40,429 bases of DNA from positions 1 through 40,429 of the IMG/VR virus record IMGVR_UViG_2529293138_000011. One strand, given 5' to 3'. Below, in pieces: positions 31,350 through 31,718 of this stretch. The position numbers and the translations under genes are program-made. This DNA comes from a virus (lineage: Duplodnaviria; Heunggongvirae; Uroviricota; Caudoviricetes). A model generated the notes under the pieces. The model was not told the origin of the DNA, did no database searches, and was given only the letters and a program-made list of their open reading frames with translations. The first letter of the stretch is position 1. The number at the start of each line of letters is the position of its first letter.

Positions 31350-31718
31350 ATGGTTGGAACCGCTATAGCAAGCTTTTTTGGGATGTTGGCAATCTCAACA
31401 ATTTACGGCTTAGCGCATGCTTTTATTGCGAAATCTCTATCAGAAAAAATAAGCCAGGCTTGGGCGCATAGATCAGCTCGTTTCATGATTCTAGTGGTCA
31501 TAGCAATACAAGGGATATCTGCATTTATCCTCTATGGATCAAGCTTATACCTGTTGTATCAAGGCGCGACATTTACGCCTTACACCAGTGATTACGGAAC
31601 TCTATACGATGGTAGTGAAGACATCTCTATGGCTTGGATCGTCTTTGGTTTATCTATGGCCGTGTCTGTTGTAGCAGACATCATTAAGGTAATTCTCGTC
31701 TTAACCTTCGCTGACTAA
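31350..31718 (+). CDS. Small multi-pass membrane protein co-oriented immediately downstream of cI (rex/sie-position moron)
   Basis: 122 aa with about three hydrophobic helices (AIASFFGMLAISTIYGLAHAFI; FMILVVIAIQGISAFILYGSSLYLLY; MAWIVFGLSMAVSVVADIIKVILVL). RBS AAGGGGGA. No resemblance to RexB or SieB by eye. Confidence 0.6.
   Translation: MVGTAIASFFGMLAISTIYGLAHAFIAKSLSEKISQAWAHRSARFMILVVIAIQGISAFILYGSSLYLLYQGATFTPYTSDYGTLYDGSEDISMAWIVFGLSMAVSVVADIIKVILVLTFAD

What the first reader, a model, noticed from the sequence alone, without database searches (positions are those of the whole stretch)
31350..31718. Small multi-pass membrane protein immediately downstream of cI (rexAB-equivalent position)
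In lambda the genes co-transcribed with cI from pRM are rexA and rexB, an abortive-infection system. Here the slot holds a single 122-aa protein with about three transmembrane helices and no RexA-like partner. The position predicts expression in the lysogen, so this is a candidate superinfection-exclusion protein of unknown type.
Basis: inference. Interest (0 to 1): 0.5.

Follow-up and report, generated by a model that had tools for sequence, protein, structure and literature searches.

The report
Orphan membrane gene hkaS beside cI
The ORF is real: it is hkaS, a small three-helix inner-membrane protein of unknown function that always sits just after the HK620-type phage repressor gene, so it is a reasonable but untested candidate for a protein that protects lysogens from other phages.

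Summary
Window 31350-31718 (+) encodes a 122-aa protein 19 nt downstream of cI, with its own Shine-Dalgarno sequence and three predicted transmembrane helices. No RexA- or RexB-like gene is present.

It is not a new gene. It is hkaS of coliphage HK620, annotated "unknown" in AF335538, and belongs to PHROG 6534 (unknown function).

About 33 protein clusters exist, all 121-122 aa, all at least 50% identical, all from Enterobacterales. In all 10 lineages examined in context (20 loci plus this window) the order is cro<- cI-> hkaS-> hairpin, OL/pL, N->. The flanking replication, N and virion modules vary.

The gene is under purifying selection (dN/dS 0.14-0.2). It shares synonymous divergence with cI, but its protein diverges 4-5 times faster.

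The AlphaFold2 model is confident (pLDDT 93). It shows an orphan three-helix bundle. No sequence or fold link was found to RexB, SieA, holins, Hex, PADLOC, Pfam, NCBIfam or PDB entries.

Function is inferred only. HkaS is most likely a lysogen-expressed accessory protein acting at the inner membrane. My best guess is a block to genome entry by superinfecting phages (about 0.35). Rivals are an abortive-infection effector, a modulator of prophage stability, and a host-physiology moron. I found no paper in the searchable library that reports a function.

The parts
30538..30603 (.). OR1 (30538-30554), OR2 (30563-30579) and OR3 (30587-30603) operators, with the divergent pR and pRM region between cro and cI
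   Evidence: Transferred from the HK620 annotation. The 17-bp AATAC..GGTATT-type sites were read directly in the window sequence.
30614..31330 (+). cI repressor, HK620 immunity type (238 aa, HTH_3 + Peptidase_S24)
   Evidence: It is 99.6% identical to HK620 cI and annotated as cI in HK620 and mEpX2.
31331..31349 (+). 19-nt cI-hkaS spacer carrying the Shine-Dalgarno sequence AAGGGGGA; no promoter-like or terminator-like site
   Evidence: The spacer is 17-20 nt in all diverged lineages.
31350..31718 (+). hkaS: 122-aa three-helix inner-membrane protein. TM1 is aa 2-29 (nt 31353-31436). A cytoplasmic loop with a short helix is aa 30-40. TM2 is aa 41-73 (nt 31470-31568). A periplasmic beta-hairpin loop is aa 74-88. 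TM3 is aa 89-121 (nt 31614-31712).
31725..31750 (+). Stable RNA hairpin (-13.7 kcal/mol, z = -3.6) 7 nt after the hkaS stop codon. It is the probable 3' end or stabiliser of the cI-hkaS transcript. It has no U-tract.
   Evidence: Hairpins of different sequence sit at the same place in the 82%, 60% and 52% lineages. The HK620 annotation places tIMM slightly further downstream, equivalent to 31800-31830.
31827..31898 (+). OL3 (31827-31843), OL2 (31849-31865), OL1 (31874-31890) and pL (31863-31898). This is the downstream boundary of the slot.
   Evidence: HK620 annotation. Promoter-like site TTTACA-17-TATTCT at 31863-31891. The operators are conserved in all four HkaS lineages aligned.
32086..32385 (+). 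N antiterminator, first gene of the pL operon; not part of the cI-hkaS unit
   Evidence: PHROG 271, E = 4e-36; HK620 annotation.

Best explanation
hkaS is a bona fide accessory ('moron') gene built into the HK620-type immunity module. Shown: it is a conserved, selected gene for a 122-aa protein with three predicted membrane helices. It lies 17-20 nt after cI in every genome that has it, and it is followed by a hairpin and then OL/pL. Inferred: it is transcribed with cI from pRM (and pRE), so it is made continuously in the lysogen and inserts into the inner membrane with its N-terminus out and its C-terminus in. Proposed mechanism, by analogy only: HkaS acts alone at the cytoplasmic membrane and prevents superinfecting heteroimmune phages from completing genome entry. 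It would do this by interfering with the phage's trans-envelope DNA conduit or with an inner-membrane host factor that the conduit needs. P22 SieA, HK97 gp15 and T4 Imm work this way. The conserved core would lie on the cytoplasmic side: the loop Q-A-W-x-H-R-x-A-R-F, the intramembrane D110/K113 pair, and the invariant C-terminus I-x-V-L-T-F-A-D. The faster-evolving periplasmic loop and outer helix halves would carry target specificity.
For: - **Real, selected gene.** PHROG 6534 matches over the full length. Length is fixed at 121-122 aa across 28 full-length clusters with 22 invariant residues. dN/dS is 0.14-0.2. The gene is intact in all 146 E. coli genomes that carry it.
- **Operon with cI.** The gap is 17-20 nt with a Shine-Dalgarno sequence. 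There is no promoter-like or terminator-like site on the + strand between 30393 and 31863. Synonymous divergence equals that of cI (0.69 against 0.78). A position-conserved hairpin follows hkaS in four lineages. The order cro<-cI->hkaS->OL/pL->N is invariant in Escherichia, Salmonella, Hafnia, Klebsiella, Citrobacter and Cronobacter, while the N, replication and recombination modules differ.
- **Membrane protein.** Hydropathy and charge bias support it. The AlphaFold2 model has pLDDT 93.4 and pTM 0.78, with helices 2-29, 41-73 and 89-121.
- **Precedent for the slot.** The slot holds rexAB in lambda. In BTP1, cI-bstA is a single operon from one transcription start site and is highly expressed in lysogens (PMC7067206). 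The cI-N region is described there as a hotspot for accessory and defence genes (PMC8585504).
- **Precedent for the protein type.** SieA is a stand-alone three-TM inner-membrane protein, sufficient to block DNA injection, and its best-conserved motif is predicted on the cytoplasmic side (PMC10883804). HkaS shows the same pattern: 53% invariant positions in the cytoplasmic loop and in the C-terminal half of TM3, against 12% in the outer half of TM3.
- **Accessory nature.** cI relatives at 71% identity or less lack the gene. Its GC content is 42%, against 46-47% for its neighbours.
Against: - No experiment of any kind bears on function. I found no paper in the library that mentions hkaS together with HK620.
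- No sequence or fold similarity to any exclusion or defence protein. hhalign probabilities are 0.35% for SieA and 0.6% for RexB. PADLOC gives zero hits.
- sieA travels with the virion ejection-protein genes it targets. hkaS travels with the immunity module through podoviruses (HK620), siphoviruses (mEpX2, HK630, HK140) and Stx2c phages. It therefore cannot be tuned to one virion type.
- The strongest conservation faces the cytoplasm. That also fits an intracellular partner such as cI, RecA or a protease.
- Co-transcription is inferred from layout, not measured.
- The hairpin lacks a U-tract.
Confidence: 0.35

Rival explanations
1. Abortive-infection membrane effector. HkaS is a latent pore or depolariser, like RexB or a holin. 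A superinfecting phage triggers it to collapse membrane potential or lyse the cell, without a separate RexA-type sensor.
For: It sits in the same slot and presumed operon as rexA-rexB. It is a polytopic inner-membrane protein. It has an invariant charged pair, D110/K113, and an invariant Q54 inside predicted membrane helices. Its predicted topology, N-out/C-in with three helices, matches class I holins (holin topology from general knowledge). One family member gives a very weak hit to a holin model, TIGR01593, E = 0.08.
Against: No homology to RexB (probability 0.6%) or to the P22 holin (0.34%). There is no sensor partner. HkaS lacks the charged C-terminal tail typical of holins. The phage has its own holin, endolysin and spanin cassette at 20928-22145. 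The TIGR01593 hit is far below its cutoff (12.9 against 40.2 bits).
Confidence: 0.15
2. Host-physiology lysogenic-conversion protein. HkaS changes a property of the lysogen unrelated to phages, for example by inhibiting or modulating a transporter, a stress response or envelope homeostasis. It is simply expressed from the strongest lysogenic promoter.
For: Lambda also expresses non-defence morons, lom and bor, from the prophage (PMC7067206). bstA was first linked to virulence phenotypes (PMC8585504). HkaS has no defence signature. It is carried by 2.7% of complete E. coli genomes from varied sources.
Against: No similarity to any transporter or regulator. The Cation_ATPase_C hit is sub-threshold, 19 against 27 bits. 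The family is confined to one immunity module and never occurs outside prophage immunity regions. Its fast protein evolution relative to cI fits conflict better than housekeeping.
Confidence: 0.2
3. Prophage-stability or induction modulator specific to the HK620-type repressor, analogous in role to 434 Hex. HkaS would influence cI cleavage, cI level or the lysis-lysogeny decision from the membrane.
For: 434 and Sf101 carry hex in exactly this slot, co-transcribed with cI. Hex stabilises the lysogen by blocking RecA-stimulated repressor cleavage, and does so in a repressor-specific way (PMC3564112). HkaS is found only with one cI lineage, where cI is 86-100% identical and the operators are conserved. 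Its most conserved surface is cytoplasmic. It would also be made from pRE during establishment of lysogeny.
Against: No homology to Hex (probability 0.07%). Exclusive linkage to cI is equally explained by tight physical linkage inside an immunity region bounded by OL and OR. cI relatives at 71% identity manage without it. I know of no precedent for a polytopic membrane protein acting on a lambdoid repressor.
Confidence: 0.12
4. HkaS is a conserved gene with no selectable function of its own that hitch-hikes with cI, or it acts only during lytic growth rather than in the lysogen.
For: It is physically locked to cI. No function is known. The annotated tIMM is weak and the hairpin lacks a U-tract.
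Against: dN/dS is 0.14-0.2, with saturated synonymous divergence and no frameshift or length change in 28 clusters. It is intact in 146 of 146 E. coli genomes that carry it. It is oriented with cI and against the lytic pR operon, and it lies upstream of pL, so no lytic promoter reads it.
Confidence: 0.05

Closest known systems
Lambda RexB (with RexA), an abortive-infection system in the cI-OL slot
   Same: Same genomic slot and same strand as cI, upstream of OL/pL, so the same expected pRM expression in the lysogen. Both are small polytopic inner-membrane proteins.
   Different: RexB is 144 aa and is reported to have four TM helices and to need RexA (general knowledge; PMC8585504). HkaS is 122 aa with three helices and no partner. 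There is no detectable homology (hhalign probability 0.6%).
P22 SieA, an inner-membrane DNA-injection blocker
   Same: A stand-alone, prophage-expressed protein with three predicted TM helices in the inner membrane. Its most conserved motif lies on the cytoplasmic side (PMC10883804). This is the best functional analogue for a partner-less small membrane protein.
   Different: SieA is 162-164 aa. It lies between genes 16 and 9 with its own promoter and carries the motif FxRYPxEAxxFNK, which HkaS lacks. No homology (probability 0.35%). sieA travels with virion genes, whereas hkaS travels with the immunity module.
BTP1 BstA, an abortive-infection protein downstream of cI
   Same: It lies immediately downstream of cI and is co-transcribed from the cI promoter. 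It is a single-gene accessory locus in the cI-N hotspot (PMC7067206, PMC8585504).
   Different: BstA localises to sites of phage DNA replication rather than the membrane. It has a cognate anti-BstA DNA element, and it is found downstream of many different repressors (PMC8585504). HkaS is a membrane protein tied to one repressor lineage and has no PADLOC hit.
Phage 434 Hex, a repressor-protection and heteroimmune-exclusion protein
   Same: Same slot, overlapping or abutting cI on the pRM mRNA. It is present in the nearest well-studied cI relatives, 434 and Sf101, whose cI is about 52% identical.
   Different: Hex is a 134-aa non-homologous protein with one N-terminal hydrophobic segment. Its reported function is inhibition of RecA-stimulated repressor cleavage (PMC3564112).
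Class I holins (lambda S, P22 gp13)
   Same: About 105-120 aa, three TM helices, predicted N-out/C-in topology (holin topology from general knowledge).
   Different: No homology. HkaS is not in the lysis cassette, which sits at 20928-22145 in this window. It has no charged C-terminal tail, and it is expressed from the lysogenic rather than the late promoter.

Membership tests
HkaS / PHROG 6534 (HK620 hkaS orthologues) | Full-length sequence match to the family profile and to HK620 AAK28867.1 | tested here: met
   PHROG 6534 E = 5.9e-79 over residues 1-122 of 122. 96.7% identity to HK620 hkaS.
HkaS / PHROG 6534 (HK620 hkaS orthologues) | Position immediately downstream of an HK620-type cI and upstream of OL/pL | tested here: met
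   The same order is seen in all 20 contexts examined.
Lambda RexB | Sequence homology to RexB | tested here: not met
   hhalign probability 0.57%. No Pfam or PADLOC hit.
Lambda RexB | Adjacent rexA partner gene | tested here: not met
   Only 19 nt separate cI from hkaS, and there is no further ORF before OL.
Lambda RexB | Location in the cI-OL slot, same strand as cI | tested here: met
Lambda RexB | Ion-channel activity triggered by infection | not testable with these tools
   Needs membrane-potential assays.
P22 SieA | Sequence homology and the conserved motif FxRYPxEAxxFNK | tested here: not met
   hhalign probability 0.35%. The motif is absent. Motif definition from PMC10883804.
P22 SieA | Gene located between homologues of genes 16 and 9 of a P22-like prophage | tested here: not met
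   hkaS lies in the immunity region. P22 sieA is at 13336-13830, next to gene 16.
P22 SieA | Inner-membrane protein with three predicted TM helices | tested here: met
   Prediction only.
P22 SieA | Blocks DNA injection by superinfecting phage | not testable with these tools
   Needs plating-efficiency, potassium-efflux and DNA-entry assays.
434 Hex | Sequence homology to Hex | tested here: not met
   hhalign probability 0.07%.
Class I holin | Membership of a holin family, location in the lysis cassette, and a charged C-terminal tail | tested here: not met
   No homology to P22 gp13. The window's own holin is at 21822-22145 (PHROG 126). The C-terminus is LVLTFAD.
Known anti-phage defence systems (PADLOC-DB v2) | Match to any defence-protein model | tested here: not met
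   0 families at E <= 10 for three diverged members.

The most novel reading that the evidence does not exclude
HkaS could be a membrane-embedded partner of the HK620-type repressor switch itself. Through its invariant cytoplasmic loop and C-terminal tail it would couple the state of the cell envelope or membrane to cI stability or activity, or to RecA or protease access. The lysis-lysogeny decision of this immunity type would then have a membrane input. This reading would explain why the protein is found with this one cI lineage only, and why its cytoplasmic face is the conserved part.
Probability: 0.08. Interest if true: 0.7.

Novelty: new member of a known kind. Interest (0 to 1): 0.35.

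Why it matters
The stretch between cI and OL/N is transcribed from one of the strongest promoters in a lysogen. It is a recognised hotspot for prophage cargo such as rexAB, bstA and hex.

HkaS is the occupant of that slot for a whole immunity type. That type is carried by 2.7% of complete E. coli genomes, by Stx2c-converting phages, and by prophages of Salmonella, Klebsiella, Citrobacter, Cronobacter and Hafnia. I found no function for it in the library I could search.

If HkaS is a stand-alone exclusion protein, it would add a new sequence family to the short list of single-protein inner-membrane blocks to phage infection. It would also matter for phage therapy and for typing of strains that carry this immunity module.

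The gene is small, single and easy to clone, so the hypothesis is cheap to test. As it stands, this is a well-delimited gene of unknown function rather than a discovery.

Tried and rejected
- **Sequence homology.** Pfam gave only sub-threshold noise (Cation_ATPase_C at 19 bits, TssN). NCBIfam gave none, apart from a 12.9-bit holin hit for one member. PADLOC gave none. A PDB sequence profile search gave none.
- **Exhaustive HMMER search** of 1.84 billion representative proteins found one true extra representative. The other hits were low-complexity repeat proteins, which I rejected as spurious.
- **Profile search** of 5.8 billion proteins found 33 clusters, none below about 50% identity. A scan of GTDB genome contigs added only one Buttiauxella locus.
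- **Fold searches** with the pLDDT-93 model:
  - BFVD best E = 0.21.
  - PDB Foldseek best E = 0.44.
  - AFDB50 was not available.
- **Direct profile comparisons** with RexB, SieA, the P22 holin and 434 Hex were all negative.
- **Canonical intrinsic terminator** after hkaS: none found by the scan. Only U-tract-less hairpins are present.
- **Rfam** on the whole window found nothing in this region.
- **Literature.** 'hkaS' alone returns only fungal-herbarium acronyms. hkaS together with HK620 returns nothing. Papers on mEpX2, HK630, HK140 and HK620 contain nothing on this gene. svsR, an sRNA at the 3' end of cI in prophage NC-SV, was checked and is unrelated.
- **Holin for lysis:** rejected because the window has its own complete lysis cassette.

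Full report

Yes. Window 31350..31718 (+) is an ATG-initiated ORF of 122 codons. It starts 19 nt after the stop codon of a 238-aa LexA/cI-type repressor at 30614..31330, which carries HTH_3 and Peptidase_S24 domains. The spacer, TGATCACGCAAGGGGGACGCTTATG, contains a good Shine-Dalgarno sequence.

cro (30313..30513) and cII (29911..30291) lie divergently on the minus strand. N (32086..32385) follows on the plus strand after a 367-nt non-coding stretch.

Hydropathy analysis gives three hydrophobic segments. The first loop (residues 27-45) has 4 K/R and 1 D/E. The second loop (71-93) has 0 K/R and 4 D/E. By the positive-inside rule, the N-terminus is periplasmic and the C-terminus cytoplasmic. 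Nothing resembling rexA or rexB is present.

**2. What the gene is.**

The region 30300-32100 is 98.7-99.1% identical to the immunity regions of 16 phage records. These include:
- coliphage HK620;
- mEpX2, HK630 and HK140;
- HF4s, HZ41, vB_EcoP_phi296/phi367 and 611R6;
- two Stx2c-converting phages.

In the HK620 record (AF335538) the ORF is hkaS, product 'unknown'. It is flanked by cI on one side and by an annotated tIMM, OL3-OL1 and pL on the other.

RefSeq calls it 'hypothetical protein' (WP_000233128.1). PHROGs places it in family 6534, 'unknown function' (E = 6e-79, full length).

A tblastn search of 50,697 phage records finds it only in the same 16 records that carry the HK620-type cI. 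It is present, intact and chromosomal in 146 of 5426 complete E. coli genomes.

The window as a whole is a P22-like temperate phage:
- integrase at 1-1158;
- an immI region with ant and sar RNA;
- IME10-like virion genes;
- its own holin, endolysin and spanin cassette at 20928-22145.

**3. Family size and context.**

A single-sequence search of 5.8 billion proteins found 12 clusters. An exhaustive HMMER scan of 1.84 billion representatives found one more true representative; the other hits were repeat-protein noise. A profile search raised the total to 33 clusters.

All full-length members are 121-122 aa and none is below about 50% identity to the window protein. Named sources are Escherichia, Salmonella, Hafnia, Klebsiella aerogenes, Citrobacter, Cronobacter and Buttiauxella.

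I examined genomic context in 20 loci from nine further lineages. Every one shows cro<- cI-> (17-20 nt) hkaS-> (about 350-490 nt) N->. The surrounding modules differ:
- replication is O/P, O/DnaB, or a primase-helicase;
- N is of the N_peptide or N36 type;
- recombination is Erf, RecT or Rad52-like.

The OL operators are conserved in the four lineages aligned, and their cI proteins are 86-96% identical to the window's. hkaS is therefore a private component of one immunity type.

Repressors that are 71% identical or less lack it:
- Serratia OS31 (71%) and mEp213 (51%) have an empty slot.
- P22 has an empty slot.
- 434 and Sf101 (52%) carry hex there.
- Lambda carries rexA-rexB.

This makes hkaS an accessory insertion, not part of the basic switch. 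Its GC content is 42%, against 46-47% for its neighbours.

**4. Selection and linkage.**

Between the window and the Hafnia-type locus, dS is 0.69 for hkaS and 0.78 for cI. The two genes therefore share one history. dN is 0.099 for hkaS against 0.020 for cI, giving dN/dS of 0.14 against 0.03.

At deeper divergence, where dS is saturated, dN is 0.33-0.42 for hkaS against about 0.08 for cI. The protein is clearly constrained but evolves 4-5 times faster than the repressor.

In six diverged lineages, invariant positions are distributed as follows:

| Region | Invariant positions |
|---|---|
| Cytoplasmic loop, residues 30-44 | 53% |
| C-terminal half of helix 3, residues 106-122 | 53% |
| Outer half of helix 3, residues 89-105 | 12% |
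| Periplasmic loop, residues 74-88 | 27% |

In 28 clusters the signature is Q-A-W-x-H-R-x-A-R-F-I-I-L at the loop-to-helix-2 junction, Q54 in helix 2, Y67/L69/Y70...T74 at the periplasmic end of helix 2, W96/F99, and D110-x-x-K113-x-I-x-V-L-T-F-A-D at the C-terminus.

**5. Expression, inferred.**

No sigma-70-like promoter or terminator-like site lies on the plus strand between the cro-cI region and pL (31863-31891). A stable hairpin (31725-31750; -13.7 kcal/mol, z = -3.6) follows the stop codon. The 82%, 60% and 52% lineages have hairpins of different sequence at the same position (-16 to -18.5 kcal/mol). This argues for a functional 3' structure of a cI-hkaS transcript.

None of these hairpins has a U-tract, and the tIMM annotated in HK620 is weak. 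The exact 3' end is therefore unknown.

There is direct precedent. In BTP1, cI-bstA is one operon from a single transcription start site and is highly expressed in the lysogen (PMC7067206). In lambda imm434, repressor and Hex are made from the same pRM mRNA (PMC3564112).

**6. Structure.**

AlphaFold2, run with an 8-sequence alignment, gives a confident model (mean pLDDT 93.4, pTM 0.78). It has:
- helix 2-29;
- a short helix 31-38 in the basic loop;
- helix 41-73;
- a beta-hairpin around residues 78-86 in the acidic loop;
- helix 89-121.

**7. Comparison with known systems.**

Profile comparisons were negative for RexB (probability 0.6%), P22 SieA (0.35%), the P22 holin gp13 (0.34%) and 434 Hex (0.07%). 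PADLOC, NCBIfam and Pfam gave no usable hit.

HkaS is therefore not a member of any of these families.
- By position it is the analogue of rexAB, bstA and hex.
- By protein type it most resembles SieA. SieA is a partner-less, prophage-expressed, three-helix inner-membrane protein. It is sufficient to block DNA injection, and its best-conserved motif is predicted on the cytoplasmic side (PMC10883804).
- It differs from SieA in lacking the FxRYPxEAxxFNK motif.
- It also differs in travelling with the immunity module rather than with the ejection-protein genes.

**8. Most likely mechanism and rivals.**

What is shown: a selected gene for a small polytopic membrane protein, locked to cI in an operon-like arrangement.

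What is inferred: expression in the lysogen from pRM.

What I propose, at about 0.35: a block to genome entry by superinfecting heteroimmune phages at the inner membrane. The grounds are that every characterised stand-alone small inner-membrane prophage or phage exclusion protein I know of (SieA, HK97 gp15, T4 Imm, lactococcal Sie2009; PMC10883804 and general knowledge) works this way, and that the slot is a defence hotspot (PMC8585504).

Because hkaS moves between podovirus, siphovirus and Stx phage backbones, any target is more likely a host inner-membrane factor or a general step than one virion type.

Rivals:
- a RexB- or holin-like abortive-infection effector without a sensor (0.15);
- a non-phage lysogenic-conversion function (0.20);
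- a repressor-specific stability or induction modulator in the manner of Hex (0.12). This rival fits the exclusive link to one cI lineage and the conserved cytoplasmic face;
- no function in the lysogen (0.05), which is disfavoured by the selection data.

**9. Literature.**

I found no paper in the searchable library that mentions hkaS together with HK620. Papers that use HK620, mEpX2, HK630 or HK140 say nothing about this gene. The original HK620 genome paper is not in the library, and the GenBank record says 'unknown'.

**10. Verdict.**

The gene itself is already annotated.

It is best filed as an uncharacterised member of a known kind, the lysogen-expressed cargo of the cI-OL slot. It represents a narrow orphan family with a confident structural model and clear, cheap experiments to run. 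Interest is moderate to low (0.35).

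Noticed in passing
window 31725-31750; L009 1832-1859; L003 6381-6421; L007 5465-5494: Each diverged HkaS lineage has a stable hairpin 7-22 nt after the hkaS stop codon. The position is the same but the sequence differs, and none has a U-tract. It may be a Rho-dependent or processing/stabilising 3' end of the pRM transcript rather than the weak tIMM annotated in HK620.
   Followed up: partly
window 4189-4256 (+) and 3286-4254 (-): The sar antisense RNA (Rfam RF00262, 92 bits) overlaps the start of an Ant antirepressor gene. This phage therefore also has a P22-type immI region in addition to the HK620-type immC.
   Followed up: no
window 2046-3185 (-) and 1240-1986 (-): The tailspike ORF is only 379 aa, and its PHROG matches are confined to the N-terminal head-binding part. 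The next ORF (248 aa, TTG start) has no PHROG match. This may be a split, frameshifted or novel receptor-binding module.
   Followed up: no
window 39182-40429 (-), next to int at 1-1158 (+): A 415-aa ORF of PHROG 17800 (unknown function) sits at the attachment-site end of the genome beside the integrase. That is a typical place for a lysogenic-conversion gene.
   Followed up: no
window 26891-28771 (-) and 28879-29739 (-): The replication module is an O-like initiator plus a 626-aa primase/helicase (Toprim/AAA_25 type), not the O/P pair of HK620. The same module is joined to a 60%-identical hkaS in Salmonella loci L005 and L006, which illustrates module shuffling around a fixed cro-cI-hkaS core.
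   Followed up: partly
L015 2409-2813 (lambda imm434 hex): As annotated, Hex begins MIRIAALLSILLTTSANSEC, which looks like a signal peptide. That is odd for a protein reported to act on RecA-stimulated repressor cleavage in the cytoplasm. The record itself notes uncertainty about the start codon.
   Followed up: no
window 32394-32760: Downstream of N there is an 83-aa ORF (PHROG 2471, unknown), then cIII (within 32767-33042). No sieB/hkaP-like gene is present, whereas HK620 carries hkaP ('putative superinfection exclusion protein') on the opposite strand at the equivalent place.
   Followed up: no
hkaS codons 110-122 (window 31677-31715): The C-terminal 13 residues, D-I-x-K-x-I-[LF]-V-L-T-F-A-D, are almost invariant across all 28 clusters despite about 50% overall divergence. 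They include a charged D/K pair one helical turn apart inside the predicted third membrane helix. This is the obvious target for mutagenesis.
   Followed up: partly
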